A program made the translations under genes and the position numbers. The notes below the pieces were generated by a model. That model was not told the DNA's origin and ran no database searches. It worked only from the letters and a program-made list of their open reading frames with translations. 64,000 nucleotides of DNA from a virus. How positions within the stretch are numbered: the stretch's first letter is position 1; every line of letters begins with the position of its first letter. Location of the stretch: IMG/VR virus record IMGVR_UViG_3300029057_000206. One strand, 5' to 3'. This document shows positions 22,666-39,005 of this stretch, in pieces.

Positions 22666-24969
22666 ATGAATCAGAATAAGAAGATAGCAGAGAAAAAATC
22701 AAGACCATACCAGCAGGAATGCATTGATAAGGTAGACAGCTTAAAAGAAGGAAGATTCCTGATTGCTCTTGCAACAGGGCTTGGGAAGACATGGATCTTC
22801 TCCCACTTTAAGAGATACGGAAGGGTACTTATTCTTTCACACAGGGATGAACTGGTCAACCAGCCGAGACGGTATTTCGACTGTAGTTTTGGCGTAGAAA
22901 AGGCAGAAAACCATTCCAATGGGGAAGAGGTAGTATCTGCGAGTGTTCAGACACTCAGCCATGACTCCCGTCTTAAGCAGTATAAGCCGGACGATTTCCA
23001 CACGATCATCATTGATGAGGCGCACCACGCTGCCGCACCATCCTATAAGAAGATCTTAAATTATTTTTCCGGCGCTAAGCGTGTAATCGGTGTCACGGCA
23101 ACTCCGAAGCGTGGCGACAACGTCCGGTTAGATGACGTTTTTAACGAGATTATTTATGCAAAGGATCTTCGTTGGGGGATTAAAAATAAATATTTAAGTC
23201 CGGTGCACTGCCGGGAGGTCCGTGCAAAATATTCCCTGAAAGGCGTAAAAAAATCTATGGGGGATTTTAATGTATCCGATTTGGACGGTTGTATTACGGA
23301 AGAAGCTGTAATAAGTGTTGCAAAAGTTCTTACAGACTGTCTCCAGGAGAATCGGCATATTCTTATTTATTGTACTACTGTCAGAACCTGTAATTTCCTG
23401 AAGGCAGTAGTTGACAAACTGCTCCCGGAAAAAGAACGTGGCAGTGTTGCTGTTTTATCAGGGAAAACACAGGAAGAAGATAGAAAAAATATGCTTGATG
23501 GTTTTATGAACGGGAGTGTCCGCGCCATTATTAACTGCATGGTTTTAACAGAAGGTACAGATCTTCCTATTGCGGATACCATTATCAACTTCCGGCCGAC
23601 GTGCAACGCGTCTTTGTATCAGCAGATCATCGGAAGAGGAACCCGGCTCTATGAAGGTAAGGAAAACTGTTTATGCATTGATATTCTTCCAGATGATGGC
23701 AGCGGGACAAGAAATCTGTGTACAGCTCTTACTCTTTTTGGTATAGATGCAAAACTTCTTGGAAAGAAACAGTCTCGAATGCTTGAAGGTGAGATTGATC
23801 CGCTTGAGATTAGCGATGAAATTGCAGGACGATTTGCAGAACTTACAAAGGCGTATGAATATCGGTTGGAGCAGGTTAATCGCTTTGTGCAGGAGCAGGA
23901 AGAAATTATATCTTCTGCGCGGAAGAAACCACATGCAGATTTAAGCGACCTTGCGCATGCAGTAGATAAATATAATTCAAAGAAAATGGATGAATTCCAA
24001 AATGATTATGATTTTCTTGGAATGGATTACTCACTTATGCCGGATACGGAACATCGTTATTGTATCAAACCTACATGGAATGACCATATTTACCTTGCTG
24101 ATCCAGATGTTATGGGTAATACAACAGTTACGTTTGATCTTACTGCCAGTGTCGGGAAATATTATATCGGTGAAATGAAAATGCAGGATGCAATTTCATT
24201 TGTTCATGATTTTTGTATGGTATCTCCAGATTATATGAAATATTCCTGGAACGTGGCATTACAAGATGAATGGGGGAAAATAAAAGCAACTGAAAATCAA
24301 ATTGGACGTCTTATGAATGAGTATGACGGGTTTCACAAAGGAAATATTAACAAACTTCAAGCATCCAGACTGATTGATCTTGCCTCTCGTATTTCGAAGA
24401 TGAAGGCAGAGGGGAAAATGATGCTTATTACACCAAGAATGCAGGAAAAAACAATTGATAAAAAAAAGAAAATGTTTAAGGAAATACTCGAAAAGGAACT
24501 GAGGGCAAAAGAGCAGGGGCGTAGTGAGTTTGGAGAATTCCAGTCGAAAATCTTTGCTTTGGCAGAAAAAAAGAAAAAAGACGAAGAGAAATTAAAGAAC
24601 CAAAAGCCTTTGGAAGAAGAAATGCTCGAAAATGGGGCGATTACAGTTAATATTGCTGTTTTTAGTTCAAAAAAAACAGCAAGCGATGCGCAGATAAAAT
24701 TTCTTGGTAATTTAAAAGATAAATTAAAAAACAGAGGAGTGGCTGTCGATAAAAAAATTCCTTATATAGGAATGGGAGCAGAAGAGGCAAGTGTATATAT
24801 TACTATATTAAAAACGCTTGTAGATCGTAACGTAGACCTTATAAAATATGGTAAAAAAATTTATTTTAATCCAAATACAATCATGAGTGTTGTATTAAAA
24901 CTAAAGGACACTTCATCCAGAGAAATTAAATGTTGTATCCCGTTCGAAAAAATAGAAGAATTGAGATAA
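22666..24969 (+). CDS. SF2 DEAH-box helicase (COG1061/type-III-res-like core) with a ~350-aa K/E-rich C-terminal extension
   Basis: Motif I ATGLGKT, motif II IIIDEAHH, motif III TAT, motif VI QQIIGRGTR. There is no HD nuclease domain. Confidence 0.75.
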   Translation: MNQNKKIAEKKSRPYQQECIDKVDSLKEGRFLIALATGLGKTWIFSHFKRYGRVLILSHRDELVNQPRRYFDCSFGVEKAENHSNGEEVVSASVQTLSHDSRLKQYKPDDFHTIIIDEAHHAAAPSYKKILNYFSGAKRVIGVTATPKRGDNVRLDDVFNEIIYAKDLRWGIKNKYLSPVHCREVRAKYSLKGVKKSMGDFNVSDLDGCITEEAVISVAKVLTDCLQENRHILIYCTTVRTCNFLKAVVDKLLPEKERGSVAVLSGKTQEEDRKNMLDGFMNGSVRAIINCMVLTEGTDLPIADTIINFRPTCNASLYQQIIGRGTRLYEGKENCLCIDILPDDGSGTRNLCTALTLFGIDAKLLGKKQSRMLEGEIDPLEISDEIAGRFAELTKAYEYRLEQVNRFVQEQEEIISSARKKPHADLSDLAHAVDKYNSKKMDEFQNDYDFLGMDYSLMPDTEHRYCIKPTWNDHIYLADPDVMGNTTVTFDLTASVGKYYIGEMKMQDAISFVHDFCMVSPDYMKYSWNVALQDEWGKIKATENQIGRLMNEYDGFHKGNINKLQASRLIDLASRISKMKAEGKMMLITPRMQEKTIDKKKKMFKEILEKELRAKEQGRSEFGEFQSKIFALAEKKKKDEEKLKNQKPLEEEMLENGAITVNIAVFSSKKTASDAQIKFLGNLKDKLKNRGVAVDKKIPYIGMGAEEASVYITILKTLVDRNVDLIKYGKKIYFNPNTIMSVVLKLKDTSSREIKCCIPFEKIEELR

Positions 24970-25030: not shown

Positions 25031-25078
25031 AAATTTTTTTGACGTTTGTTTAAATGGCGCAATATTCATAACGAAGGA
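25031..25078 (+). promoter_or_regulatory. promoter element P copy 4, acting as the leader of CRISPR array 1
   Basis: ttttttgacgtttgtttaaatggcgcaatattcataacg, ~70 nt upstream of the first repeat. Confidence 0.45.
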
Positions 25079-25143: not shown

Positions 25144-25376
25144 GTTGCACCACGCAAGGGTGCAGGGGTGAAATATTATACTGAATCGTCGCTGCCTGCA
25201 TAGATATAGTTGCATCCCTTATGGGATGTATGGGTTGAAATTCAATAGAAACAGATGCATTCGGAGGTGTTACAAGTTGCACCCCCGCAAGGGGTGCATG
25301 GGTTGAAAATAAGAAATGGTAGGAAGGAATTCAGATATGAACATTAGTTGCATCCCGCAAGGGTGCAGGGGTGAAG
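25144..25376 (+). CRISPR. CRISPR array 1: 4 degenerate type I-C-like repeats (31-34 nt) and 3 spacers (34-37 nt)
   Basis: Repeats are gttgcaccacgcaagggtgcaggggtgaaat, gttgcatcccttatgggatgtatgggttgaaat, gttgcacccccgcaaggggtgcatgggttgaaaa and gttgcatcccgcaagggtgcaggggtgaag. They end in the I-C-like (G)GTTGAAAT. Spacer 2 is near-identical to a spacer in array 3. Confidence 0.75.
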
Positions 25377-25536
25377 TAAAAGGATGTTGCCAGATATGTC
25401 AACCAAACTCGACTATTGAATAAATAACCGAGCATGATTCCTTCGGAACTGCTGAATCATGTAGTCTGACTGGTGAAGCGATGGTATACATATTTGAACA
25501 AATTAAACAAAAATACAGAATCAGAGGGAAAATAAT

Positions 25537-26184
25537 ATGTCAAAAACAAAAGGACTATCAAAGAAGAAAAAATTACTAAAAACGCTCATACATAAATACC
25601 TTCCATTGCAGGTACTACTTACTGTCTTTTTGTATGCAGTAATTGTATTTATTAACATTCCAATTAATAAATGGCTTACTCTCAACTGTCAGAAATGGTC
25701 AAGTGGGGAATATCATTTTTATGATGCATTTTTTATTCTTCCATTTGCTGAACTGTTAATTTTTGCCATTATGTCTGCCGTTATTTGCGCTGTTTATTAT
25801 TTTGTCAGTGGAATAATCGCATATAGGAATTACTGTTACATTCCACTTACAGAAGATGAAATCAAGAAAAAAGGATTTAAAAATGCAGATGAGTATTTTG
25901 CTTATGTGTGCAACATGTGTTCTTATGGTTTTAAAAATAATAAAGACTACATTCTTGTTGGTGATGAAGACCTCCAAAAAATGTTAACTACCTGTCTGCA
26001 GGTATTTCCTGATAATGGGACAATTTTTGGAATAAACCGCCATATGGTACGAAATATCATATGGGATCCTGATTTTCTTTCCGCACTTGCACTAGCCAGT
26101 GACCAAAGGGCGGAAATCATCAATGGACGTGTTGTATTGTCTGGCACCACAAAAGATGGTGACAGAAAAGAATATAAGATATAA
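25537..26184 (+). CDS. array-adjacent membrane protein, family X (two TM helices plus a ~120-aa C-terminal domain)
   Basis: 215 aa. It is paralogous to 46747..47394 (same position relative to array 4) and to 26459..26791. Confidence 0.6.
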   Translation: MSKTKGLSKKKKLLKTLIHKYLPLQVLLTVFLYAVIVFINIPINKWLTLNCQKWSSGEYHFYDAFFILPFAELLIFAIMSAVICAVYYFVSGIIAYRNYCYIPLTEDEIKKKGFKNADEYFAYVCNMCSYGFKNNKDYILVGDEDLQKMLTTCLQVFPDNGTIFGINRHMVRNIIWDPDFLSALALASDQRAEIINGRVVLSGTTKDGDRKEYKI

Positions 26185-26200: not shown

Positions 26201-26419
26201 ATGTCAAAGAAAGCATCAGAAACACCGGAGGTGCCATCATATATCCCTCCGGCAAGTGAAAAGGAAAAGATTATAGAAAAGATCCGAAAAAAAGGAATTG
26301 AATGCAAACCGGATGGTACCGGGATTCCAATATTCTACACAAATGACCCGAAAGTAATGGATATGATCCGAAAAGAGATCAATGAACGATTTTCGTTCGG
26401 GTTTCATATTCGTCCATAG
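26201..26419 (+). CDS. hypothetical small protein
   Basis: RBS aaggagat, then ATG 26201. 72 aa. Confidence 0.45.
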   Translation: MSKKASETPEVPSYIPPASEKEKIIEKIRKKGIECKPDGTGIPIFYTNDPKVMDMIRKEINERFSFGFHIRP

Positions 26420-26458
26420 GGAAAATAATAGAAAATAAGATTATAGGAGAAATAGTAC

Positions 26459-26791
26459 ATGTCAAAGAAAAAAATATCAAAAAAGAAAAATGTATTAAAG
26501 GTGTTATGGAATGAGTGTATAACATTCAAGGTGTTAATTTTTATCATAGCATATGTAGTGCTTGCGTTTATTAATATGCCATTTGAAAAATGGCTCTCAC
26601 TTTATTTCGAATGGGAAAAATTAAAGGATTATCAAGAAGTATTCATGGAGGAGATAACATTATTAGTAATTCTCCCTCTCATGGAGATAGCTGCTGTTGC
26701 ATTAATTTGTTTTATTATCTATGAGTTTTTTTGCTCTGTCAGTAAGATGATTGCATCTGATGAAGTAATTTCGATTGAAAAGGAAGAATGA
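26459..26791 (+). CDS. membrane protein, family X (short paralog, N-terminal TM part only)
   Basis: The MSKKKISKKKNVLKVLWNEC N-terminus is shared with 46747. Confidence 0.5.
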   Translation: MSKKKISKKKNVLKVLWNECITFKVLIFIIAYVVLAFINMPFEKWLSLYFEWEKLKDYQEVFMEEITLLVILPLMEIAAVALICFIIYEFFCSVSKMIASDEVISIEKEE

Positions 26792-26859
26792 TACGAAAAG
26801 AACACCGCTATTAGGTCAGAAATAAATAGCAGAGGTTTGCAGATATAAGGAGGATCGGA

Positions 26860-27030
26860 ATGTGTACTTTAAAGGATAAGTTAGTGGAATGTGGAGCATG
26901 TGTAGCAGCTGTAATTCTTGTGTTGGCAGTTTGTTATGGACTAAGTTGGATTGTAACATGTGGAGTTATTAAGCTGATTACGATGTGTTTTGGATTAACA
27001 TTTAAGTGGTCCATTGCAACCGGTAAATGA
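26860..27030 (+). CDS. hypothetical 56-aa Cys-rich membrane peptide
   Basis: RBS aaggaggat lies 6 nt upstream. The frame was checked codon by codon. Confidence 0.3.
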   Translation: MCTLKDKLVECGACVAAVILVLAVCYGLSWIVTCGVIKLITMCFGLTFKWSIATGK

Positions 27031-27286
27031 GCTATGACAATATTAAATTTTATCATTGAGTGTTGGAAGAATTCTTGCGACGAAAAAATCAAAAGGAATT
27101 ATGTTGAATCCCTTGCTAAAGTGGCGGTTTCAGTGGCCATCATTATTATATCTGTTTTATTATATTTGCACATATGAAATGTATAACGGAAATGTATATT
27201 TTGGGGGAGGAGGGGTAAGTACAAACATAATTTTTAAAAAAGTAGCGCAAAGAAAGAATTCACTAATGCAGAAGGGGCGTAACAAT

Positions 27287-29110
27287 ATGATCAACGGAGA
27301 ATTAGTTGTAGATAATTTTGCGGGCGGAGGAGGAGCTTCCACAGGAATTGAACTTGCTACCGGATACAGCGTAGACATAGCTATTAACCATGATCCGGAG
27401 GCCATTAAGATGCATAAAGTAAATCATCCCAATACAAAACACTATTGTGAAAACGTATGGGAGGTTGATCCAGTAAAAGCCTGCAAGGGGCACCCTGTCG
27501 GTCTTGCATGGTTTTCTCCGGACTGTAAGCATTTTTCCAAGGCCAAGGGGGGAAAACCGGTAGAAAAGAATATTCGCGGTCTTGCGTGGGTTGTGCTTAA
27601 ATGGGCGGCACTTGTCAGACCAAGAGTTATCATGCTTGAAAATGTGGAAGAATTTCAGACATGGGGACCATGTATTCCTATCAGGGATAAAGATACAGGA
27701 CGCGTTATTGTCAGCATGGTAGGAAGGCATGACAGAGAGAAGAACGAGCCGCGTACGAGGGTTGCAGATCCAGGAGAAGTTGTTCCTGTGGATCGCCAGA
27801 TATTCCAACCAGATCCTAAAAGGAGCGGCCAGACATACAAAAAATGGAGAAAGCAGCTAGAAGCACTTGGATATGAGATAGATACAAAGGAACTTGTAGC
27901 AGCTGATTATGGCGCACCTACTATGAGAAAGAGATTCTTTATGATTGCACGGTGTGATGGCAAGCCGATTGTCTGGCCGGAACCAACACATGGACCGGCA
28001 GATAGTGAAGAGGTAAAGGCAGGACTGTTAAAACCATACGTTGGAGCGTATACGCAATTGGATTTTTCTCTTCCTTGCCCGAGCATATTTGATACGGCAG
28101 AGGAAATCAAAAGGAAATATGGAATACGCGCTGTACGTCCATTGGCGCAGAAAACAATGGATCGAATCGCAAGAGGATTGAAAAAGTTCGTATTAGACAA
28201 TCCGGAGCCGTTTATTATCCAATGCAATCATGGTGGAGAGCGTAGACAAAGCGACATCAAAGAGCCTTTACCTACTATTACTGGAAAACACGGATATGGA
28301 ATTGTGGAACCTAAGATTGTTCCATATATGGGAACCAATACAACAAATCATCCAGGTGGAAATTGTAAAAATCCTATACATACAATTACAACAGGAAATC
28401 AACAGTGCCTTATCAGCCCAACGCTGATTCAGTATCATTCCGAAACATCGAAGGATGAAGTCAGAGGCCAATCGATTGAAGATCCGATAATGACCGTGGA
28501 TGGTTCGAACCGATACGGATTGGTCACGTCGTTTCTACATAAATATTATGACGGAGGATACACTGGAGCTGGTGATACTGTCGAAAATCCGTTACCGACA
28601 GTAACATCCTGGGATCATAACAGTCTGTGTGCAGTTAATCTGATCCAAATGAATAATCATTGCGATGGAAGGGACGTGAAGGAGCCAATTCCAACAATCA
28701 CAGCAGGCGATGGTCATTTCGGAGAGGTTAGAGCATTTCTGATCAAGTATTATGGTCAGGGAACTGGACAGGATGTTAAGGAACCTTTGGATACGGTTAC
28801 ATCAAGAGATCGATTTGGTTTAGTTACAATTAATGGTACCGACTATAAGATCGTGGATATCGGATTGAGGATGCTTGAACCGAAAGAACTGTATGGATGC
28901 CAGGGATTTCCAGATGATTACATCATAGACCGCGATTACACAGGGAAAAAATACCCAAGAAGCGAGCAGGTACGCAGGTGTGGAAATGCTGTATGTCCTC
29001 CGATTCCGGCTGCTCTTGTAAAAGCAAATCTTCCGGAATTATGCGTAGCGAAACGCACTGGGAATATGAAAATTCGTGAGGAACAGACCGGGCAGCTTAG
29101 ATTTGCATAA
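27287..29110 (+). CDS. DNA (cytosine-5)-methyltransferase with an expanded multi-repeat target-recognition region
   Basis: Motif I DNFAGGGG, motif IV SPDCKHFS, motif VI ENV, and six PTIT/PTVT-type repeats. The C-terminus has motif IX-X GCQGFPDDY...CGNAVCPP. The start was moved to the RBS-backed ATG 27287. Confidence 0.85.
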   Translation: MINGELVVDNFAGGGGASTGIELATGYSVDIAINHDPEAIKMHKVNHPNTKHYCENVWEVDPVKACKGHPVGLAWFSPDCKHFSKAKGGKPVEKNIRGLAWVVLKWAALVRPRVIMLENVEEFQTWGPCIPIRDKDTGRVIVSMVGRHDREKNEPRTRVADPGEVVPVDRQIFQPDPKRSGQTYKKWRKQLEALGYEIDTKELVAADYGAPTMRKRFFMIARCDGKPIVWPEPTHGPADSEEVKAGLLKPYVGAYTQLDFSLPCPSIFDTAEEIKRKYGIRAVRPLAQKTMDRIARGLKKFVLDNPEPFIIQCNHGGERRQSDIKEPLPTITGKHGYGIVEPKIVPYMGTNTTNHPGGNCKNPIHTITTGNQQCLISPTLIQYHSETSKDEVRGQSIEDPIMTVDGSNRYGLVTSFLHKYYDGGYTGAGDTVENPLPTVTSWDHNSLCAVNLIQMNNHCDGRDVKEPIPTITAGDGHFGEVRAFLIKYYGQGTGQDVKEPLDTVTSRDRFGLVTINGTDYKIVDIGLRMLEPKELYGCQGFPDDYIIDRDYTGKKYPRSEQVRRCGNAVCPPIPAALVKANLPELCVAKRTGNMKIREEQTGQLRFA

Positions 29111-29250
29111 ATTGCATAAATTGCTATACTGTAAAAAGAAAATGTAAATATTGCTATCATTTGTATTTTTATAGACGTTCATATGCGCAATACATAATTC
29201 TTTTTGAAAAAGTAATGAGATGGTAACAAAGAAAAAAGGAGAGTGAAAGA

Positions 29251-29709
29251 GTGGTTCAAAATTTTGAGGCGTATGGAGTTGAAATTACGGTAGAGAAACC
29301 AATTGCTGTATGCGTAGCGTGCTCATTTTGTGTAAACATAGATATGGCGGTGGATAAAAATGTTACTCATTTTTGTGAAATTCTTGGGAAAGAAATGACT
29401 AATCAAGAAGCTGATAATAAACCTTGTTCAGAATGTCCAATTACATATAGAAATAAAGAGTCTTTAAATGAAAAGAAGGAGAAAGGAAAAATGTTGATAA
29501 TAAGTATTGTAATTTTATTTATGGGACTTGTATACATGGGGGCTATTGGAGTTGAAACTTTTTCACGCTCATTAATTTTTATTATGATTTCCATCGTTGA
29601 GCTTTTTCTTATCGTGTATGCGGACCGAAAAGATTTTGAAGAAAAAAGAAAACGTGATCATTCCATAACTCAATATGATCCGGATGAAGAAACAATAGAA
29701 GAGGATTAA
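29251..29709 (+). CDS. hypothetical protein (Cys-rich N-terminus plus TM segment)
   Basis: 152-aa ORF. Confidence 0.4.
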   Translation: MVQNFEAYGVEITVEKPIAVCVACSFCVNIDMAVDKNVTHFCEILGKEMTNQEADNKPCSECPITYRNKESLNEKKEKGKMLIISIVILFMGLVYMGAIGVETFSRSLIFIMISIVELFLIVYADRKDFEEKRKRDHSITQYDPDEETIEED

Positions 29710-29897
29710 AAAATGGGGGATGAAATTTGCTATTTGCATGCTTCAGAATAGGAAATTAAAAGGATAATGGAGAATAGAAATGGGAGTTTTTCAAACAAAA
29801 GTATACAAGGAATGTTATCCATTTTCGAGAGAGGTTTTGTACAATACAGAAAAACGGAAATTAATAATTCATTTACTAGAAAGGTGGTGATATAATT

Positions 29898-30167
29898 ATG
29901 CATGAAATAGAAAACAAAATTTTAGAAGAATTGCTTGTTGCACCTTTGTGCATTGTTCAAGACCGGTATGGTGGATGTTATTCTGGAGCAGAATATCTGG
30001 CATTTAATATGGAACCGTATTTAGTAACAGAATTGGACGTAGATGCAGGTGATATGAGCTGTCGCGATTTTTGGGAATACGAAGCGAAAGAGTATATTAT
30101 TGGAAAAGGAAATACTCCGTTAGAAGCACTATGCGATTTACAAATTAAATTAACTTCAAAGAAGTGA
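29898..30167 (+). CDS. hypothetical protein
   Basis: RBS gaaaggtgg. Confidence 0.45.
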   Translation: MHEIENKILEELLVAPLCIVQDRYGGCYSGAEYLAFNMEPYLVTELDVDAGDMSCRDFWEYEAKEYIIGKGNTPLEALCDLQIKLTSKK

Positions 30168-30361
30168 TTGTGGCAGAAAGAACGGGTATAAAATGAAAAA
30201 GATTCCATGGCTTGTCTTATCTATCAATAACAGCAGAGTACCACTTCCATATGATGCTCCGCATGGGAGTGGTAGTTCATAAAAAAGCTTCCATCAATGC
30301 TTTTGAAAAGCTATAATTATAACGTGTTATGGTCAAGCTTATAATAAGGAGATGAATAAAT

Positions 30362-30577
30362 ATGTACGGTATATCAAGGAAAATCCATGAGAGATTCATA
30401 AATAGAAAGTCAAAGAAACACGATGAAAAATATACAGTCCCATTTCCTACGGACATTCCAAACCCAAATATCGTGGTTTTCGGTACTCATGGGAGTGGTA
30501 AATGTCGGATGCCTCTTCGCGTTAATGCTCAAATAAAAGAACTGACTACATATGATGGACTGACAGAAAGGAGATAA
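30362..30577 (+). CDS. hypothetical small protein
   Basis: RBS aaggagatg. Confidence 0.4.
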   Translation: MYGISRKIHERFINRKSKKHDEKYTVPFPTDIPNPNIVVFGTHGSGKCRMPLRVNAQIKELTTYDGLTERR

Positions 30578-30579
30578 AT

Positions 30580-30924
30580 ATGGGAACTATTAGAAACAGA
30601 TTAACGATTGTGAATGATTACAATTTTGATAGAATTACCAACACAAGACAAAATGCGGTTGAATATTTTGGAAAAATCATGCGAGATGAATTTGACTTTC
30701 CGGATTATGATGTGAACACACAGATGATAAGTCCTATTTTGCCAAGTGTAGTAAACGGCATATACACCTTTGTTATTATGGGAGACTGCTCAAAAGACGG
30801 ATGGGAATTATCTAACGATTTTAAAAAGTACAGAGACGAGTGGATTCGGAAAAATAAGGGTCTAAATATATTGGTTGCAGACTTTGGAGAGGGAGATGCA
30901 GAAGCATATATAAAAGAGTATTAA
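30580..30924 (+). CDS. hypothetical protein
   Basis: RBS gaaaggagat. Coupled to the previous gene. Confidence 0.45.
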   Translation: MGTIRNRLTIVNDYNFDRITNTRQNAVEYFGKIMRDEFDFPDYDVNTQMISPILPSVVNGIYTFVIMGDCSKDGWELSNDFKKYRDEWIRKNKGLNILVADFGEGDAEAYIKEY

Positions 30925-31136
30925 TGCCCGTTTACAGTCTATAAAAGACATATTGTATCCAGAATTAAGCAAACAAGCCGTTTCTTCTCGCCTGTAGAAG
31001 GAAGGTTGAACTGGATGAAGATGTGACAGTAGACAACTGGAAGGCTCGTATAGATATTGATGAATTAGAAGCTACATATCGGGTCGCAGATTTATATACC
31101 GGTTCAATCGAAGCGTGATAGTTAATGTGTAAAGAA

Positions 31137-31168
31137 AGAGTCTTGGAATAAGGCTCTTTTTTTTATTT
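31137..31168 (+). terminator. rho-independent terminator
   Basis: agagtcttggaataaggctc followed by T9. Confidence 0.5.
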
Positions 31169-31191
31169 CAGAAAAATTTTCAAGAAATTTC

Positions 31192-31238
31192 TGATTTACT
31201 TTGACGATTTTTCAAAAGGCGCAATATGTGTAATGAAG
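31192..31238 (+). promoter_or_regulatory. promoter element P copy 5
   Basis: tttactttgacgatttttcaaaaggcgcaatatgtgtaatg. Confidence 0.5.
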
Positions 31239-31270
31239 ACGAAAATAAGACGATTTTGGAGGGAGAAAAA

Positions 31271-31600
31271 ATGAAAATTTACTTTGAGGATGGAAAACTT
31301 GTCAATATTAAGCAATTACCGATTGCGCCGGATTATGTGATTGATGCTTCTGATGGAGTAACTGCCTGCATGGATATGCTGGATCGAATTTACTCGACTA
31401 ATCGAGATGCAGTTGTATATACAAATTCAATTATTGCATTCAGTAACCGGTATGCATGGAATGAAGAGAAGAAAATTTCGGATGTTTATATCAGAGATGG
31501 AGAGGGTATGGAATTTACCAATATTGCGCTTCTGACAAATAGACAACTTCGGGAGGGGCATAATCTCGCGAAGTTGTATCTTGGCGGTGAGTTCCGGTAG
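31271..31600 (+). CDS. hypothetical protein
   Basis: RBS ggagggag, then ATG 31271. Confidence 0.45.
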   Translation: MKIYFEDGKLVNIKQLPIAPDYVIDASDGVTACMDMLDRIYSTNRDAVVYTNSIIAFSNRYAWNEEKKISDVYIRDGEGMEFTNIALLTNRQLREGHNLAKLYLGGEFR

Positions 31601-31994
31601 GAAAGAAAGGGAAAAATCATGGACAAAAGTGGAGTAATTAACGGATAGACTTACGAGGAAACAAACCAGACTGCGAAAACTGCATGATTGTGGGAAAAAA
31701 TATGTACAGATAGGATGTCCTACGACAGCTTATGGGATTTGTGTAGGCATACAAAAAGGAAATTGATGAATACTATGCGGTCGGAGTCCCAGAAGAGCGC
31801 CTGGAAAATGCAGAAAAGCAGAGAAAGGAAGAAAAACTTGAGCAAGAATCTAATTTGCATATGAGGGTATAGCAGATTCAAGATCGGTTGTATGTATTAT
31901 TTTTGAAAGGGGTGATGCCTATTGAGAGTTAATTTTAAAGAGAGTACATAAATAGCAGTTTAAAAAATCATAAAGAATGTGAGGGAAAAAATAT

Positions 31995-33779
31995 ATGAGT
32001 GGTTTACCATTTGATCCTATTATTATTGCGGTTGTCGCGGTCGTTGTGATCCTTATCGGCATACTTGCCAGCGGGTATGTCAAAGCGCCGGCAGACAAGG
32101 CATACATCATTTCCGGACTTAAGAAAGTTCCGAAGGTGTTAATTGGCCGGGCAGGAATTAAGATTCCTTTTCTGGAAAGAAAAGACGAACTTCTGTTAAA
32201 GCAGATCGGTATTGATATTAAAACCGGAGGCTATGTTCCAACGAAAGATTTCATCGGTGTTGATATTGATGCGATTGCAAAAATCCGTCTGATTTCCATG
32301 CAGGATGTAGGCAAAGAGAAAACCTATACCAGAACAATCGTTGATGAGATTGTTGACGGCAGCAATACAAAAGATGGAGATAAAGAATATTCAACTCATA
32401 CAGAAACTGTTACAATCAAGATTACAGAAGATATGGCGCGTGCGGCAATGCGGAATTTCCTTAATATGAAAGAATCCAACATTGTTGAAGCTTTACAGGA
32501 TTCTTTACAGGGAAATATGAGAGAAATCGTTGGTACGCAGACATTGCGTGCTTTGTGCCAGGATCGTAAATCTTTTGGTGATGAGGTTCAGAGCAAAGCG
32601 CAGCCGGATATGAATGCCCTCGGTGTATGGATCGAGTCCTGCAATATTCAGCGTATTGAGGACGAACAGGATCTGATCAATGCTCTTGGTATGGATAACA
32701 TGGCTGCTATCCAGAAGAGTGCAAGCATTGCAAAGGCAGAGGCTGACAAAGACGTTGCGATTGCACAGGCGAAGGCAGCAAGAGAAGCAAATGATGCAAA
32801 AGTCGCCGCTGATACGGAAATTGCTGAGAAGCAGAACGAGCTTGCAATCAAAAAGGCAGAATTACAGCAGCTCTCTGACACAAAGAAGGCGATTGCGGAT
32901 GCTGCTTATAAGATTCAGGAACAGGAACAGCGTAAAGCGATTGAGACAGCAAAAGTTAATGCAGATATTGCAGAGCAGGAAAGAACTGTTGAACTTCGCG
33001 AGAAGGAAGCACAGGTTGCAGAACAGACACTTAATGCGACGGTAAAGAAGCAGGCGGATGCAGATAAGTACAGCAGACAGCAGGCTGCAGAAGCAAATCT
33101 GATTGAAAAATCCCGTCAGGCTGATGCAGAAAAATATCAGCAGGAGAAGGAAGCAGAAATCCAAAAGATTAAGGCAGAGGCCGATAAGGAAGCGAAGAAA
33201 AAAGAAGCAGAAGGTATTCTTGCAATCAAGAGATCAGAAGCAGAAGGTATCGCCGCTGTAGGTAAAGCAGAAGCTCAGGCAATCGAAGCAAAAGGTATTG
33301 CAGAAGCTCAAGCAATGGAGAAAAAAGCAGAAGCTTATTCAAAGTATAACAAGGCTGCTGTTGCAGAAATGACGATCAAAATGCTTCCAGAGCTTGCAGC
33401 CAAAGTTGCTGAGCCGCTTGGACAGATTGACAAAATCACAATCATCGGAGGCGGCGATGGCAGCAATGGTATCGAACAGGTTGCCGGGAATGTTCCTGTT
33501 GTTATGGCGAAGGTCTTTGAGAGTGTCAAAGAAGCTACAGGGATAGATCTGACAAGTATTGTTAATGCTGAGTCTTACGATGCGAAGGTTAACCGCAATG
33601 TTAATTTAACCGGTATCAAAGATACGGTGGCAATTTCCGGCGGATCAAAGAGTGATACTGACGCAGATAAAACCGAGAATTCCGGCATCGATTCTGATTT
33701 ATCAGGAGAAAATGCAGAGGTCATCCGTTCTTTGGCAGAAAATGCTAATCAGGAATCAGCTGACAGTAATCTGGACTAA
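31995..33779 (+). CDS. flotillin / SPFH (band-7) family membrane protein with a long EA-rich coiled-coil
   Basis: N-terminal TM segment, SPFH-like core, and (A/E/K)-rich repeats. 594 aa. Confidence 0.75.
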   Translation: MSGLPFDPIIIAVVAVVVILIGILASGYVKAPADKAYIISGLKKVPKVLIGRAGIKIPFLERKDELLLKQIGIDIKTGGYVPTKDFIGVDIDAIAKIRLISMQDVGKEKTYTRTIVDEIVDGSNTKDGDKEYSTHTETVTIKITEDMARAAMRNFLNMKESNIVEALQDSLQGNMREIVGTQTLRALCQDRKSFGDEVQSKAQPDMNALGVWIESCNIQRIEDEQDLINALGMDNMAAIQKSASIAKAEADKDVAIAQAKAAREANDAKVAADTEIAEKQNELAIKKAELQQLSDTKKAIADAAYKIQEQEQRKAIETAKVNADIAEQERTVELREKEAQVAEQTLNATVKKQADADKYSRQQAAEANLIEKSRQADAEKYQQEKEAEIQKIKAEADKEAKKKEAEGILAIKRSEAEGIAAVGKAEAQAIEAKGIAEAQAMEKKAEAYSKYNKAAVAEMTIKMLPELAAKVAEPLGQIDKITIIGGGDGSNGIEQVAGNVPVVMAKVFESVKEATGIDLTSIVNAESYDAKVNRNVNLTGIKDTVAISGGSKSDTDADKTENSGIDSDLSGENAEVIRSLAENANQESADSNLD

Positions 33780-33794
33780 CAGAATATGTAATTT

Positions 33795-33842
33795 AAGACA
33801 TATACCGGGGTACTTGCGTATTCTGGTATATGTCTTTTTATG
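33795..33842 (+). terminator. rho-independent terminator
   Basis: An 11-bp stem agacatatacc/ggtatatgtct is followed by a T-run. Confidence 0.55.
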
Positions 33843-33980
33843 CTTTTATGGTGAGAGTTTTATTTTTGATCATGGCGAAACGATACCAAAGAAAGTCCGG
33901 TTTGCAGTGTACGAAAAATGCAACCACCGGTGCAATTTTTACTTCGAAAAGATCGGACTGGATATGGCGTAAGTTTTCAA

Positions 33981-34028
33981 AAAATCTTTGACGATTTTTC
34001 AAAAGGCGCAATATGTATAGTGTAAAGG
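33981..34028 (+). promoter_or_regulatory. promoter element P copy 6
   Basis: aaaatctttgacgatttttcaaaaggcgcaatatgtatagtg. Confidence 0.5.
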
Positions 34029-34165
34029 TCATAAACCGAGCTGCCAGGGTTACCGGCTGGCAGAAAATCCTTTCGAAAAATGTTTACGTTCCGGGAAATC
34101 CCCGGAAAGGATAGTGGGTACGCAGCGCAAGTTATTCCGGGTTCGACTCCCGGATATCCTTTTTC
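34019..34165 (+). ncRNA. structured small RNA family A copy 2
   Basis: It has the same hairpins as copy 1. The terminator is ccgggttcgactcccgg followed by a U-run. Confidence 0.45.
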
Positions 34166-34197
34166 AAAATTGCAGGAAAAATGTGGAGGAAAAGAGA

Positions 34198-34503
34198 ATG
34201 GATGAACTGATCAAGAAACTTCGGATGTATGCAGACACATACAAAAAAGAACCAGCCGGACGGGAAGTTGAAGGTACCGTGGAATTGCTCGAAAATTCTG
34301 CAGATGCTTTGCAGGAAGCAGGGGAGGCTGTTCAAAAATTAAAGCAGAGATTTGTGGATGGAATAGATGTCCATTACCAGGGACATGATGCCGACGATTA
34401 CATTGAGTGTCCTTTCTGCGGATACGAGGTTGCAGCGATCGACGATTACTGTGAGCTGCGCCCAAATCATTGTCCGAAATGTGGAACAAAGCTGATATAC
34501 TAG
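34198..34503 (+). CDS. hypothetical zinc-ribbon protein (CPFCG...CPKCG)
   Basis: RBS gtggagga, then ATG 34198. Confidence 0.45.
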   Translation: MDELIKKLRMYADTYKKEPAGREVEGTVELLENSADALQEAGEAVQKLKQRFVDGIDVHYQGHDADDYIECPFCGYEVAAIDDYCELRPNHCPKCGTKLIY

Positions 34504-34518
34504 ATATAGGAGGCTGGC

Positions 34519-34746
34519 ATGAAAGAATTGAGGAAGTTGTGCATGCACCCATTGTGCGATGCAGAGCCAAAAATGCATACGATTTACGAATATATCGGAA
34601 AAGCCGGGACGAAAGGTACGACAGTTTTGTGGTTCCTTGAGATCCCAAAAAAGGAGCCAAAGTGTATGGGATCAGTGAGGAAGACCATGTTTCTCCGTAT
34701 ATGGAAGGCATGGCATTCCGGTATGCAGAATTCAAACCATACATGA
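34519..34746 (+). CDS. hypothetical small protein
   Basis: RBS taggagg. Confidence 0.3.
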   Translation: MKELRKLCMHPLCDAEPKMHTIYEYIGKAGTKGTTVLWFLEIPKKEPKCMGSVRKTMFLRIWKAWHSGMQNSNHT

Positions 34747-34855
34747 TTGATGAGATTTACAGCAATGGATTCGTTGTCTGCCACGAGTGTTAGGATAAGA
34801 CAAAAATGCGTGTCCAATTAACAAGAAGGAATATGCGGTAAGTAATGGAGATATT

Positions 34856-35335
34856 GTGGATATAAATGCAGAATACCACAAAAGGGCATCAAATCTTGGC
34901 ATGGAGAAGCAGAGGACTTACCTTCAGTATGAGATCTCCAAGCCAGATGTCATCAGAAAAGATCTTGAGACCGCAAAAAAGAGGCTGGAAAAGGCAAAAG
35001 AAAGAAATTTTAAAACGTTGGATGAGTGGGAAGAAAAAATTGAAGCTTATACGAAAGTGTTGGAAGACAGCAAAGTATCTTCCTTGTTTTACAATGATAT
35101 TTCTAACGCCATTTCGGACGGAACAGCACAGTGCCGTATCTGTACCTTCGTTTGGCAGGGTAAATGGAAATATACGGAAAATATTTCCCTTGGAGTGTGC
35201 GTCGTGATCAAGCACATGGGGTACACCTACATTTTTGGCACAAGTCCAGACAGCCAGTATTCTCCATGTTTTGCAGTATGGGAAAGCGAAGGAGAACCAG
35301 AGCTGGAAGAAGAAAACTACCTTATAGTCAAGTAA
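34856..35335 (+). CDS. hypothetical protein (possible GTG start)
   Basis: 159-aa ORF. Confidence 0.4.
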   Translation: MDINAEYHKRASNLGMEKQRTYLQYEISKPDVIRKDLETAKKRLEKAKERNFKTLDEWEEKIEAYTKVLEDSKVSSLFYNDISNAISDGTAQCRICTFVWQGKWKYTENISLGVCVVIKHMGYTYIFGTSPDSQYSPCFAVWESEGEPELEEENYLIVK

Positions 35336-35387
35336 GAAAGAAGCCGGGGAATCCCGACTTTTCTGCTGCATTGTGTGTATATTTTAA

Positions 35388-35461
35388 CGCCGCCTGCGGG
35401 ATTCGAACCCGCGGATAAAGAGTTCAAAGCTCCCTGCGTTAACCTTTTCGCCAAGGCGGAG
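35388..35461 (-). tRNA. tRNA-Gln(TTG)-like, degenerate (acceptor mismatch, G-U pairs in the anticodon stem)
   Basis: T-arm gcgggTTCGAATcccgc. Anticodon loop CTTTGAA. Confidence 0.35.
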
Positions 35462-35532
35462 CACACCCGGAAGGACTCGAACCCTCGTTACCGGTTTTGG
35501 AGACCAGTTTCTGTCCATCAGACAGGTGCATA
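35462..35532 (-). tRNA. tRNA-Trp(CCA)-like with a reduced D-arm (possible pseudo-tRNA)
   Basis: Anticodon arm ctggtCTCCAAAaccgg. T-arm gagggTTCGAGTccttc. The acceptor needs two G-U pairs. Confidence 0.35.
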
Positions 35533-35533
35533 A

Positions 35534-35604
35534 CAGGCGATAATGGAATCGAACCATTGTTTTCTGAGTCAGAATCAGATGTCTTACCATTGAACGAATC
35601 GCCC
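35534..35604 (-). tRNA. tRNA-Gln(CTG)
   Basis: Anticodon arm tctgaTTCTGACtcaga. T-arm aatggTTCGATTccatt. Position 1:72 is a G-U wobble. Confidence 0.5.
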
Positions 35605-35606
35605 AG

Positions 35607-35680
35607 TATCCCCAAAGGGACTCGAACCCTTAACCGACAGATTAGAAATCTGTTGCTCTTTCCAATTGAGCTATGGGGAT
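35607..35680 (-). tRNA. tRNA-Arg(TCT)
   Basis: Full cloverleaf: acceptor ATCCCCA/TGGGGAT, D-arm GCTCaattggaaaGAGC, anticodon arm acagaTTTCTAAtctgt, T-arm aagggTTCGAGTccctt. Confidence 0.75.
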
Positions 35681-35686
35681 ATATAG

Positions 35687-35776
35687 CGCAGACACCGGGG
35701 ATCGAACCCGGACAGCGGGTGTGCCGCATGCCACATTAGCAGTGTGGAGGGGTACCATTTACCTTTATATGTCTGC
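35687..35776 (-). tRNA. tRNA-Ser(GCT), class II
   Basis: Acceptor GCAGACA/TGTCTGC. Anticodon arm ccacaCTGCTAAtgtgg. Long variable arm. T-arm ccgggTTCGATCcccgg. Confidence 0.6.
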
Positions 35777-35781
35777 ATAAG

Positions 35782-35853
35782 AGGCATCGGAGGGGATCGA
35801 ACCCTCGCCTTCCGGGTTGCAGCCGGACGCCTTCGCCGTTTGGCTACGATGCC
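35782..35853 (-). tRNA. tRNA-Cys(GCA)
   Basis: Acceptor GGCATCG/CGATGCC. Anticodon arm tccggCTGCAACccgga. T-arm gagggTTCGATCccctc. Confidence 0.75.
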
Positions 35854-35883
35854 ATATAATTCTTCCCGATAAGAGAAGATGAG

Positions 35884-35967
35884 CGCTGGGGCAGGGAGTC
35901 GAACCCTGATATCCTTTCGGAATGACGGTTTTCAGGACCGTTGCTTTACCAGTTGAGCCACCACAGC
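35884..35967 (-). tRNA. tRNA-Ser(TGA), class II, with an unusual C33
   Basis: Anticodon arm acggtCCTGAAAaccgt. Variable-arm hairpin tccGAAAgga. T-arm cagggTTCGACTccctg. Confidence 0.55.
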
Positions 35968-36005
35968 AAAAATAAAAGCATACACCTCTCAATCGAAAGA
36001 TGTAT
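35960..36005 (-). terminator. terminator inside the tRNA array (minus strand) that splits it into two transcription units
   Basis: The reverse complement reads aagcataca...tgtatgctt followed by ttatttttg. Confidence 0.45.
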
Positions 36006-36212
36006 GCTTTGCAATTCCAGGTATTTCCAATATTCTCCCGGAAATTTCCCTACAATGACCACATTTCTTTCAATTTGAGACAATATTTATTTGCACGACA
36101 ACTACGCCAGATACATGACTGCGACTGACTCATACTTGCCTGTGAATATTGTCTCATTACTGCTGTAATCATTGATTTTCCCTTCCTTTCCTTGGTTTTC
36201 TTGAATATTTAG

Positions 36213-36286
36213 TGTGTCTGGTGGGACTTGAACCCGACGACCCCACGATTAAAAGTCGCGTGCTCTGCCAACTGAGCTACAGACAC
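36213..36286 (-). tRNA. tRNA-Lys(TTT)
   Basis: Acceptor GTGTCTG/CAGACAC. D-arm GCTCagttggcaGAGC. Anticodon arm cgcgaCTTTTAAtcgtg. The T-stem is imperfect. Confidence 0.6.
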
Positions 36287-36291
36287 ATAAG

Positions 36292-36363
36292 CGGATCAGG
36301 AGGGGATCGAACCCTCATCTTCCGGTAGACAGCCGGATGTACTAGCCGCTATACTACAGATCC
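36292..36363 (-). tRNA. tRNA-Asp(GTC)
   Basis: Anticodon arm tccggCTGTCTAccgga. T-arm gagggTTCGATCccctc. Confidence 0.65.
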
Positions 36364-36367
36364 ATAA

Positions 36368-36440
36368 AGCTCCCGTCCGGCTTCGAACCGGAAACCTTCT
36401 GATTACAAGTCAGATGCACTACCAGTTGTGCTACAGGAGC
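36368..36440 (-). tRNA. tRNA-Thr(TGT)
   Basis: D-arm GCACaactggtaGTGC. Anticodon arm tctgaCTTGTAAtcaga. T-arm tccggTTCGAAGccgga. Confidence 0.7.
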
Positions 36441-36446
36441 AGGAAC

Positions 36447-36519
36447 ACTTCCGACGGGTGCTGCCCCGCTATCTCCGCCGTGACAGGGCGGTGACTCTGT
36501 TGTTTGTCCTCGGAAGTAA
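36447..36519 (-). pseudogene. tRNA-like pseudogene (7-bp acceptor cttccga/tcggaag and a GTC-anticodon-like hairpin, but no TTCGA T-loop)
   Basis: The reverse complement reads CTTCCGAgg...ccgccCTGTCACggcgg...TCGGAAG. Confidence 0.3.
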
Positions 36520-36524
36520 ATAAG

Positions 36525-36606
36525 TGCGCCGGGGAGGACTCGAACCTCCGGTGTTTCTTTGTGGCTGATTTACAGTCAGCTGCTGTCGCCTCTGAGCCAC
36601 CGACGC
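36525..36606 (-). tRNA. tRNA-Tyr(GTA), class II length, with an unstructured variable region
   Basis: Acceptor GCGTCGG/CCGGCGC. Anticodon arm gctgaCTGTAAAtcagc. T-arm ggaggTTCGAGTcctcc. Confidence 0.55.
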
Positions 36607-36611
36607 ATAAG

Positions 36612-36683
36612 CTGGTCCGGAGGGTCTCGAACCCTCAACGCCCCGGTTAACAGCCGGGTGCTCTACCATTGAGCTACGGATCA
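36612..36683 (-). tRNA. tRNA-Asn(GTT)
   Basis: Starts with U1-A72. D-arm GCTCaatggtaGAGC. Anticodon arm cccggCTGTTAAccggg. T-arm gagggTTCGAGAccctc. Confidence 0.7.
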
Positions 36684-36684
36684 G

Positions 36685-36756
36685 AGCATGTGACGGGTCT
36701 CGAACCCGCCCGTCCTGCTTGGAAGGCAGGTGTGCCGCCAACAACACTTCACATGC
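36685..36756 (-). tRNA. tRNA-Gly(TCC)
   Basis: Acceptor GCATGTG/CACATGC. Anticodon arm cctgcCTTCCAAgcagg. T-arm gcgggTTCGAGAcccgt. Confidence 0.7.
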
Positions 36757-37261: not shown

Positions 37262-37302
37262 ACCTATCATATCATACTGATCGTGAAGTGTCAACAGGAA
37301 AT

Positions 37303-37380
37303 TTAAAAAAGGTTATTTTTGGTTATTTTGGTTATTTTTCAAAATAAAACAAAATAAAACAAAATAAAACAAATAAAAAT
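37303..37380. repeat. AT-rich tandem repeats (ggttatttt x3, caaaataaaa x3-4)
   Basis: Directly visible. Confidence 0.7.
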
Positions 37381-37406
37381 CTCCGCCAAAATAGACGGAG
37401 ATTTGA
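37375..37406 (-). terminator. terminator of the minus-strand gene 37410..38030
   Basis: tctccgtctattttggcggaga followed by a T-run (reverse complement). Confidence 0.5.
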
Positions 37407-37409
37407 AAA

Positions 37410-38088: not shown

Positions 38089-38105
38089 ATTTCAAAAAAT
38101 TTCCC

Positions 38106-38152: not shown

Positions 38153-38168
38153 GAGGAGGAAATACAAA

Positions 38169-38990: not shown

Positions 38991-39005
38991 TTTCAAAACA
39001 TTTCC

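What the first reader, a model, noticed from the sequence alone, without database searches (positions are those of the whole stretch)
25537..26184. A membrane-protein family that sits directly downstream of CRISPR arrays in two separate places
Family X (25537-26184 and 46747-47394, with a short third copy at 26459-26791) has two TM helices and a conserved cytoplasmic C-terminal domain (YRNYCYIPLTEDEIK...FPDNGTIF...VVLSG). Both full-length copies begin within 25-160 nt of the last repeat of an array (array 1 and array 4). In array 4 the final truncated repeat almost touches the RBS. The repeated linkage suggests a functional array-effector module or co-transcription, and this is not a known cas gene.
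Basis: seen in the sequence. Interest (0 to 1): 0.6.

Follow-up and report, generated by a model that had tools for sequence, protein, structure and literature searches.

The report
Phage membrane protein beside CRISPR arrays
An undescribed two-helix membrane protein family of large gut phages does sit right after two CRISPR arrays here, but in most related phages it follows unrelated genes, so it looks like a fast-evolving accessory gene at a recombination hotspot and not a CRISPR component.

Summary
X1 (25537-26184) and X2 (46747-47394) are 51% identical paralogs with two membrane helices and a conserved cytoplasmic domain. X3 (26459-26791) is an N-terminal fragment. X1 starts 159 nt after type I-C array A, and X2 starts 70 nt after array E, which follows a Cas3-less cas5-cas8c-cas7 operon.

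The "array-effector module" reading is not supported.
- 76 homologous loci have enough upstream sequence, and they fall into 16 different upstream contexts.
- Arrays occur in only three of these contexts. All three are orthologs of the two window junctions in close relatives.
- Elsewhere X follows a small ORF, a truncated methylase, TnpB, HNH or replication genes.
- Sister phages lack window 26421-47445. This is a 21-kb island (methylase, tRNAs, Cascade, arrays) bracketed by X3 and X2.
- Their single X gene is an X3-5'/X2-3' hybrid.

X has no sequence or fold relative in any library searched. Its membrane module evolves at dN/dS about 1 and recombines independently of the conserved C-domain.

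Best reading: X is a hypervariable accessory membrane protein, possibly for superinfection exclusion, that is passively co-transcribed with the arrays. Interest is low to moderate.

The parts
22666..24969 (+). SF2 helicase (ResIII + Helicase_C, 767 aa). It is the conserved upstream neighbour of array A and X1.
   Evidence: Pfam. 99% identical in sister contigs L032, L039 and L041.
25034..25070 (+). Copy of the phage consensus promoter-like motif (TTTGACG-N-GGCGCAATAT). It probably drives array A and X1.
   Evidence: About 11 copies of the motif in the window (families D1/D5). The sigma-70-type scan hits 25039-25066.
25145..25377 (+). CRISPR array A: 4 diverged type I-C-like repeats and 3 spacers.
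   Evidence: The spacers are conserved in L029 and L032-L043.
25537..26184 (+). X1, a full-length family X protein (215 aa; 2 TM helices plus a cytoplasmic alpha/beta domain).
   Evidence: The C-domain is under purifying selection (dN/dS 0.08-0.36) and the TM module is near 1.
26201..26419 (+). Small ORF (72 aa). It often lies next to X genes in relatives and ends in a conserved hairpin.
26459..26791 (+). X3, a truncated family X copy (110 aa; N-tail + TM1 + TM2 only). It marks the left edge of the island.
26421..47445 (.). 21-kb accessory island that is absent from sister phages. It contains X3', a C5 DNA methylase, a flotillin-like protein, 13 tRNAs, arrays B-D, cas5-cas8c-cas7, array E and X2.
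   Evidence: blastn collinearity: L032, L039 and L034 jump from window 26420 to 47446. tblastn synteny. Pfam and tRNA results.
42596..45919 (+). Type I-C Cascade genes cas5d (42596-43270), cas8c/csd1 (43267-45006) and cas7 (44957-45919). No cas3, cas1, cas2 or cas4 is adjacent.
   Evidence: Pfam E-values 2.5e-38, 3.1e-165 and 1e-107. ORF map.
46170..46676 (+). CRISPR array E: 8 repeats and 7 spacers. The leader is on the cas7 side and the trailer is towards X2.
   Evidence: Sister contigs carry 3-5 extra leader-proximal spacers that differ between strains.
46702..46734 (+). Putative degenerate terminal repeat overlapping the X2 ribosome-binding site (AAAGGAG, 46732-46738).
   Evidence: Seen in the sequence. 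Not significant against shuffles.
46747..47394 (+). X2, a full-length family X protein (215 aa). It marks the right edge of the island.
47398..47970 (+). 190-aa ORF (only weak wHTH-like hits). It is the conserved downstream neighbour of X or of the 72-aa ORF in relatives, and is followed by ASCH and GNAT genes.

Best explanation
Family X is an orphan accessory membrane protein of a clade of large phages from gut and rumen metagenomes. It has a basic N-tail, a two-helix membrane hairpin with a short outside loop, and a compact cytoplasmic alpha/beta domain of about 120 aa.

Its position after two CRISPR arrays in this genome is a by-product of genome mosaicism, not a dedicated array-effector module. 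The few bases just upstream of X genes, and the conserved junction between the membrane module and the C-domain, are recurrent recombination breakpoints. Many different cargoes therefore end up in front of X, including arrays, TnpB, HNH, methylase fragments and small ORFs. X2 and the X3 fragment bracket a 21-kb island that carries the Cas3-less Cascade.

X has no recognisable promoter of its own here. It is most likely transcribed by read-through from the array A promoter (X1) and from the cas operon/array E transcript (X2). This step is inferred.

For function I commit to a membrane-level conflict protein. The most likely role is superinfection exclusion or immunity that acts alone at the cytoplasmic membrane. 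The rapidly diversifying membrane hairpin would set specificity and the conserved C-domain would provide the common activity. This is inference, and I put it at about 0.3.
For: Shown:
1. Contexts. 76 loci fall into 16 upstream contexts. Arrays occur only in the array-A context (13 loci), the array-E context (6 loci) and one deletion variant. Other contexts are a homolog of the 72-aa ORF, a truncated C5-methylase, unrelated genes, a 548-aa TnpB/Cas12f-like gene, HNH with HD and an integrase nearby, a bovine-phage replication module, and an Xre-HTH plus a LexA-like gene downstream.
2. Breakpoints. About 35 nt around the RBS travels with the gene, and sequences diverge immediately upstream of it.
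3. Island. L032, L039 and L034 are 90-98% identical to the window but skip 26421-47445. The single X of relatives that carry one X at this position (L021, L009, L011, L013) is X3-like in its upstream region and first ~180 nt (82-100%) and X2-like in its 3' half (78-100%).
4. Module shuffling. L029 has an N-module 100% and a C-module 58% identical to X1. L030 has 78% and 100%.
5. Evolutionary rates. X1 orthologs are 80-85% identical while the flanking genes are 97-100%. dN/dS is 0.8-1.4 in the N-module and 0.08-0.36 in the C-domain.
6. Transcription signals. No terminator-like site lies between the arrays and X, and a promoter motif precedes array A. Arrays B, C and D are likewise sandwiched between protein genes.
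7. No conserved partner gene across contexts.
8. L008 carries a deletion from repeat 3 of array E into X2 codon ~62, which would suggest X2 is dispensable if the deletion is real.
Against: - Within the window, two independent array-X junctions are unlikely under random placement (about 0.7%). The hotspot model explains why many things land there, but not specifically why arrays did so twice.
- The more distant subfamily (L049-L080) often has I-C mini-arrays 2-9 kb upstream, so a loose genome-level association with array-bearing phages is not excluded.
- Whole-genome co-occurrence of X with Cascade could not be tested, because only +/-10 kb per locus was available.
- The proposed exclusion function has no direct support. 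There is no homology to any known Sie protein and no expression data. dN/dS near 1 in a membrane anchor could also reflect relaxed constraint.
- The sample is dominated by human-gut assemblies found through two or three conserved peptide patterns.
Confidence: 0.6

Rival explanations
1. X is a CRISPR-associated accessory or effector protein of the Cas3-less type I-C Cascade. It would be a membrane effector recruited or activated on target binding, analogous to membrane accessories of other CRISPR types.
For: Two independent array-X junctions occur in one genome. The Cascade lacks Cas3, so an alternative effector would make sense. X is not a known protein.
Against: 13 of 16 upstream contexts lack arrays. 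Phages without the Cascade island keep X genes. No cas genes lie within +/-10 kb in most loci. X occurs in replication or lysogeny-type neighbourhoods in distant phages. There is no match in PADLOC or to any Cas-associated family.
Confidence: 0.07
2. Expression coupling without shared function. X mRNA is the 3' part of the pre-crRNA transcript and is released or tuned by Cas5d cleavage at the last repeat. X dosage would then track array transcription and Cascade presence.
For: Same strand, short gaps (159 and 70 nt) and no terminator or recognisable promoter in between. A hairpin-containing repeat-like element overlaps the X2 RBS. Bicistronic protein-repeat transcripts are documented for phage acr-racr loci (PMC10651486).
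Against: The terminal 'repeat' is not significant. Most X genes are expressed without any array upstream, so coupling cannot be required. There are no transcript data.
Confidence: 0.15
3. X is an anti-defence (Acr-like) gene that travels with repeat-derived RNAs and an HTH regulator, as in racr-acr-aca loci.
For: Phage solitary repeats and mini-arrays are enriched next to acr genes (PMC10651486). X is followed by a strong Xre-type HTH gene in L088 and by a weakly wHTH-like ORF here. It lies among defence and counter-defence cargo such as a methylase, RM, TnpB and Mrr.
Against: To my knowledge, known Acrs are small soluble proteins. X is an integral membrane protein of 215 aa. The arrays here have real, strain-variable spacers and their own Cascade, so they are not decoy repeats. 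X matches no defence-system model in PADLOC; anti-defence libraries were not searched.
Confidence: 0.08
4. X is a housekeeping membrane protein of the phage cycle. It could be a membrane anchor for replication or genome organisation (like phi29 p16.7) or a holin/antiholin-type lysis regulator.
For: X has two TM helices plus a cytoplasmic domain. It sits in a replication/recombination gene block in the bovine phage (UvrD, RecG, RuvB-like, RecD2).
Against: Copy number ranges from one full-length copy to two plus a truncated fragment among sister phages, and one variant truncates X2. The membrane module evolves at dN/dS about 1 with module shuffling, which is atypical for core functions. No endolysin gene was seen next to any copy among the genes annotated.
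Confidence: 0.1

Closest known systems
Csx27/Csx28, membrane accessory proteins of type VI-B CRISPR-Cas (from my own knowledge; cited in the reference list of PMC7162821)
   Same: Small membrane proteins encoded beside a CRISPR locus.
   Different: Csx27/28 co-occur consistently with cas13b across genomes. X does not co-occur consistently with arrays or cas genes. It shows no similarity to any CRISPR-associated or defence model in PADLOC and has no structural neighbour in the PDB.
Phage racr-acr operons: solitary CRISPR repeats co-transcribed with neighbouring protein genes (Camara-Wilpert et al. 2023, PMC10651486)
   Same: Phage-borne I-C-type repeats immediately adjacent to, and probably on the same transcript as, a protein gene.
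   Different: Here the repeats form true arrays with strain-variable spacers next to the phage's own Cascade. X is a membrane protein with no Acr similarity. The adjacency is not conserved across the family.
Type I-C variant systems of huge phages that lack Cas1/Cas2 and carry a helicase instead of Cas3, with compact arrays (Al-Shayeb et al. 2020, PMC7162821)
   Same: Same genomic setting: a large phage, cas5d-cas8c-cas7 without cas3/cas1/cas2, several compact arrays, and an SF2 helicase next to one array.
   Different: That work does not describe family X. Whether the helicase at 22666-24969 is the same helicase was not tested.
Superinfection-exclusion or immunity membrane proteins of phages, e.g. 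T4 Imm and lactococcal Sie2009 (from my own knowledge)
   Same: Small inner-membrane proteins encoded in variable accessory regions. They act alone, are diverse, and often sit near regulatory or lysogeny genes (compare).
   Different: No sequence or structural similarity was detected, and no functional data exist. The resemblance is by architecture and evolutionary behaviour only.

Membership tests
CRISPR-associated (cas/accessory) gene | Consistent co-localisation with CRISPR arrays or cas genes across diverse lineages | tested here: not met
   Arrays lie upstream in only 3 of 16 contexts (19-20 of 76 loci), and all of these are orthologous to the window junctions. No cas hits were found within +/-10 kb of the relatives that lack the array-E/Cascade junction.
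CRISPR-associated (cas/accessory) gene | Homology to a described Cas or accessory family | tested here: not met
CRISPR-associated (cas/accessory) gene | Presence depends on presence of the effector complex in the same genome | tested here: inconclusive
   Sister phages without the Cascade island keep X1-type or hybrid X genes. Only about 20 kb per contig was visible, so a Cascade elsewhere in those genomes cannot be excluded.
Holin / antiholin | Small (usually under 150 aa) TM protein with a short charged C-tail, encoded next to an endolysin | tested here: not met
   X is 215 aa with a folded 120-aa C-domain (pLDDT 93). Its neighbours are a helicase, arrays, small ORFs, and ASCH and GNAT genes. 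No lysin was seen in the annotated neighbourhoods.
Superinfection-exclusion membrane proteins | Membrane localisation, accessory or variable genomic position, single-gene module | tested here: met
   Two TM segments and a positive-inside N-tail. The copy number varies and the gene lies in a mosaic region. There is no conserved partner gene.
Superinfection-exclusion membrane proteins | Blocks DNA entry or infection by other phages | not testable with these tools
   Needs phage challenge experiments.
Anti-CRISPR (acr-aca) locus | Small soluble inhibitor followed by an HTH aca gene; inhibits a Cas effector | tested here: inconclusive
   An HTH gene lies downstream in L088, and only weak wHTH-like hits occur here. 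X is an integral membrane protein. Inhibition is not testable with these tools.

The most novel reading that the evidence does not exclude
Family X is a new class of modular phage membrane determinant for phage-phage or phage-host conflict. It would combine a rapidly diversifying membrane hairpin that sets specificity with a conserved cytoplasmic domain of a previously unseen fold. Its paralogs would also act as the 'bookends' through which large gut phages gain, lose and exchange a 21-kb competition island carrying a Cas3-less Cascade, arrays, tRNAs and a methylase. X expression would be wired into the crRNA transcripts.
Probability: 0.2. Interest if true: 0.5.

Novelty: new member of a known kind. 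Interest (0 to 1): 0.27.

Why it matters
If X had been a true array-linked effector, it would have explained how Cas3-less phage Cascades act. The survey makes that unlikely, which saves follow-up effort.

Two things remain useful.
1. X is a clean example of an orphan, structurally confident (pLDDT 93) but unmatched domain in large gut phages, with clear signs of conflict-driven evolution.
2. There is a concrete map of a 21-kb gain/loss island containing the phage's CRISPR machinery, with breakpoints in X genes. This bears on how huge phages exchange defence and counter-defence cargo.

Tried and rejected
**Homology searches for X (all negative)**
- Pfam, PHROGs, PADLOC and NCBIfam.
- PDB sequence profile.
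- INPHARED phages by tblastn and megablast.
- IMG/VR and GTDB genomes by pattern plus tblastn.

**Fold searches**
- The full-length model matched only generic helical hairpins.
- The AlphaFold-DB library was not available.

**Spacers**
- All 15 window spacers and 8 strain-specific spacers were searched against the window and all fetched loci. Only the arrays themselves matched, so no spacer targets X genes or these relatives.
- Two spacers were searched in IMG/VR with no hits.

**Host and RNA families**
- Host identification via the leader-proximal repeat in GTDB genomes gave no hit.
- Rfam on the array A-X1 interval and on the repeated sRNA-like element found nothing meaningful.

**Other**
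- The 'truncated terminal repeat' was tested against shuffles and was not significant.
- I considered and rejected a single duplication of an array+X unit as the source of both junctions. The two trailers are unrelated, and X1/X2 homology starts about 13 nt before the ATG.
- Several distant members lie on contigs too short to inform on context.

Full report
**Setting**

The window looks like part of a large phage genome.
- It has 13 tRNA genes in one block (35387-36893) plus one more.
- A promoter-like motif (TTTGACGATTTTTCAAAWGGCGCAATAT) is repeated about 11 times.
- It encodes a type I-C Cascade operon: cas5d 42596-43270, cas8c/csd1 43267-45006 and cas7 44957-45919, with Pfam E-values of 2.5e-38, 3.1e-165 and 1e-107. 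No cas3, cas1, cas2 or cas4 lies beside it.
- I-C-like repeats ending in GTATGGRTTGAAAT form five clusters: A 25145-25377, B 38501-38607, C 40196-40300, D 41892-42110 and E 46170-46676.
- Cas3-less type I-C variants with compact arrays have been described in huge phages (PMC7162821).

**Checking the observation**

X1 (25537-26184) and X2 (46747-47394) are both 215 aa and 51% identical (E = 8e-76). X3 (26459-26791, 110 aa) aligns only to the N-terminal half. It breaks off exactly where intact members begin the conserved motif A-Y/F-R-N-Y-C-Y-I-P-L-T-E-D-E.

Hydropathy gives two strong membrane segments per copy and a very basic N-tail, so the topology is N-in, C-domain-in.

X1 starts 159 nt after the last repeat of array A. 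X2 starts 70 nt after the last clear repeat of array E. The suggested extra truncated repeat at 46702-46734, overlapping the X2 RBS, has a small hairpin but does not score above shuffled sequence.

**The family**

A word-indexed search found 91 clusters. All come from metagenomes, and none has a name or a Pfam domain. An exhaustive profile search of 1.84 billion representative proteins found only 107 clusters. There are no relatives in IMG/VR, in GTDB species genomes or in deposited phage genomes. The metagenome contig collection, whose matching records are mostly human-gut assemblies, holds 128 relatives, and one branch is in bovine samples.

It is a real gene. The C-domain has dN/dS of 0.08-0.36 between orthologs.

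I located X in 94 loci and looked upstream in three ways: a repeat-tail motif, a hairpin-plus-tail scan and a generic scan for spaced repeats. I then clustered the 300 nt upstream of each gene.

The 76 loci with enough upstream sequence fall into 16 contexts. Arrays are present in three.

| Context | Loci | Notes |
|---|---|---|
| helicase-array A-X1 | 13 | orthologous to the window junction |
| cas7-array E-X2 | 6 | orthologous to the window junction |
| deletion variant of the array E context | 1 (L008) | see below |

These are the same two junctions as in the window, found in very close relatives. The other 13 contexts (57 loci) have no array. In them X follows one of these:
- a homolog of the 72-aa ORF at 26201;
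- a truncated C5-methylase fused directly to the X RBS region;
- assorted unrelated genes;
- a 548-aa TnpB/Cas12f-like gene in a 604-kb contig;
- an HNH gene, with HD and integrase genes nearby;
- a RuvB/RecG/UvrD replication block in a bovine phage.

In another distant member an Xre-HTH gene and a LexA-like gene follow X.

A distant subfamily (30% identity, 28 of the 76 loci) often has two-repeat I-C mini-arrays 2-9 kb away. These are separated from X by other genes, including genes on the opposite strand. No Cas protein is encoded within +/-10 kb of X outside the array E context.

**Why arrays are next to X here**

Three sister contigs (L032, L039, L034) are 90-98% identical to the window on both sides but jump from window position 26420 to 47446. 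Their gene order is helicase, array A, X1, 72-aa ORF, 190-aa ORF, ASCH, GNAT.

The window therefore carries a 21-kb island (26421-47445). The island begins with the X3 fragment and ends with array E and X2. It contains a C5 methylase, a flotillin-like protein, the tRNA block, arrays B-D and the Cascade operon.

Other relatives have a single X at this position. Its upstream region and first ~180 nt are 82-100% identical to X3, and its 3' half is 78-100% identical to X2. That is the product expected if X3 and X2 recombine and delete the island, or equivalently the site into which the island was inserted.

Across all contexts, about 35 nt around the RBS travels with the gene and similarity stops immediately upstream. 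Inside the gene, the membrane module and the C-domain assort independently: L029 is 100%/58% identical to X1 in the two modules, and L030 is 78%/100%. So X genes are recombination boundaries, and what lies upstream of them is variable cargo.

The two array-X junctions are independent, because the trailers are unrelated and X1/X2 homology starts about 13 nt before the ATG. They are two cases among many different junctions.

In this phage arrays are generally embedded in gene strings. Arrays B, C and D begin 0-20 nt after the stop codon of an upstream ORF, and B and C are followed by further ORFs.

**Transcription**

A consensus phage promoter lies at 25034-25070, before array A. Two more lie at 42209 and 42471, before cas5. 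A strong terminator follows array D (42143-42183). No terminator-like structure lies between array A and X1, or between cas7, array E and X2.

Read-through transcription of X from the array or cas promoters is therefore likely, but it is an inference. Most X genes elsewhere have no array upstream, so any coupling is incidental to the family.

**Evolutionary behaviour and likely role**

Between phages whose flanking genes are 97-100% identical, X1 is only 80-85% identical. The differences concentrate in the membrane module (70-79% identity, against 92-94% in the C-domain). dN/dS is 0.8-1.4 in the membrane module and 0.08-0.36 in the C-domain.

Copy number ranges from one full-length copy to two plus a fragment, and tandem pairs occur (L019). 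One variant deletes from array E into X2 codon ~62. No partner gene is conserved.

This pattern fits an accessory, conflict-driven membrane protein that acts on its own. A superinfection-exclusion or immunity-type role is the mechanism I consider most likely. It remains unproven, and I put it at about 0.3. The alternatives are a Cascade effector, an Acr-like protein, a replication anchor or holin, or pure expression coupling through Cas5d processing. They are listed with their evidence under rival explanations.

**Verdict**

The sequence observation is right. The family is new in the sense of being undescribed and without detectable relatives. The adjacency is best explained by mosaic recombination at X gene borders plus passive co-transcription. 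Interest is low to moderate.

Noticed in passing
window 46170-46676; L001-L006: Array E has seven fixed trailer spacers with diverged repeats. Sister contigs carry 3-5 extra spacers at the leader (cas7) end, flanked by identical repeats and differing between strains; the window has none. This suggests ongoing spacer acquisition even though no cas1, cas2 or cas4 lies beside the Cascade.
   Followed up: partly
window 46204-46238 versus 42203-42237 and 39003-39037: The first fixed spacer of array E resembles the phage's own consensus promoter. It matches 25/35 positions, with 15 contiguous matches at spacer positions 2-16. The best matches are the promoter before the cas operon and the one at 39003. 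It may be a partially matching, autoregulatory crRNA-like guide.
   Followed up: partly
window arrays A-E (alignment A3): Repeats differ from one another even within a single array, yet they keep the hairpin through compensatory changes (AU to GC in 5 sequences, CG to UA in 6).
   Followed up: partly
window 25242-25275 and 41990-42023: Arrays A and D share nearly the same spacer (32/34 identical). No target was found in the window, the fetched loci or IMG/VR.
   Followed up: partly
window 38501-38607, 40196-40300, 41892-42110: Mini-arrays B, C and D start 0-20 nt after the stop codons of upstream ORFs. They therefore appear embedded in polycistronic units. Only array D is followed by a strong terminator (42143-42183).
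   Followed up: partly
window 11592, 13007, 22420, 25034, 31196, 33983, 38109, 39009, 42209, 42471, 59022: A promoter-like motif of about 37 nt (TTTGACGATTTTTCAAAWGGCGCAATAT) is repeated 11 times on the + strand (D1/D5).
   Followed up: no
window 22389-22602, 33952-34164, 38978-39189, 39404-39433: A repeated element of about 150-210 nt starts at the promoter motif and ends in a tRNA T-arm-like sequence (TTCCGGGTTCGAYTCCCGG) plus a T-run (D7/D16). L032 and L039 have an extra copy between the helicase and array A. Rfam gave no hit. It may be a family of phage small RNAs.
   Followed up: partly
window 1424-21751: A second repeated motif, T-run + TTTCATATT...GTGTAAAC, occurs 9 times in the first 22 kb (D10/D15). 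It may be a different promoter class or a terminator-promoter unit.
   Followed up: no
window 31995-33779: A 594-aa flotillin/SPFH (Band 7) protein is encoded inside the island.
   Followed up: no
window 22666-24969: An SF2 helicase (ResIII + Helicase_C, no HD domain detected) lies directly upstream of array A. This arrangement is conserved in sister phages. Compare the 'helicase instead of Cas3' noted for huge-phage I-C variants (PMC7162821).
   Followed up: no
L081 8352-10070: In a 604-kb contig, a 548-aa TnpB/Cas12f-like gene ends about 70 nt before the X start codon, and a perfect hairpin lies in the gap. This is another guide-RNA-type locus directly upstream of an X gene.
   Followed up: no
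L074 7520-7620: A more distant phage lineage has a two-repeat I-C mini-array whose 'spacer' is a near copy of the sequence just upstream of the first repeat. This suggests a duplicated repeat unit and not an acquired spacer.
   Followed up: no
L008 3960-4200: This variant joins repeat 3 of array E to X2 codon ~62 at a short microhomology. It removes five spacers and the first membrane helix. It could be a real deletion or an assembly chimera.
   Followed up: partly
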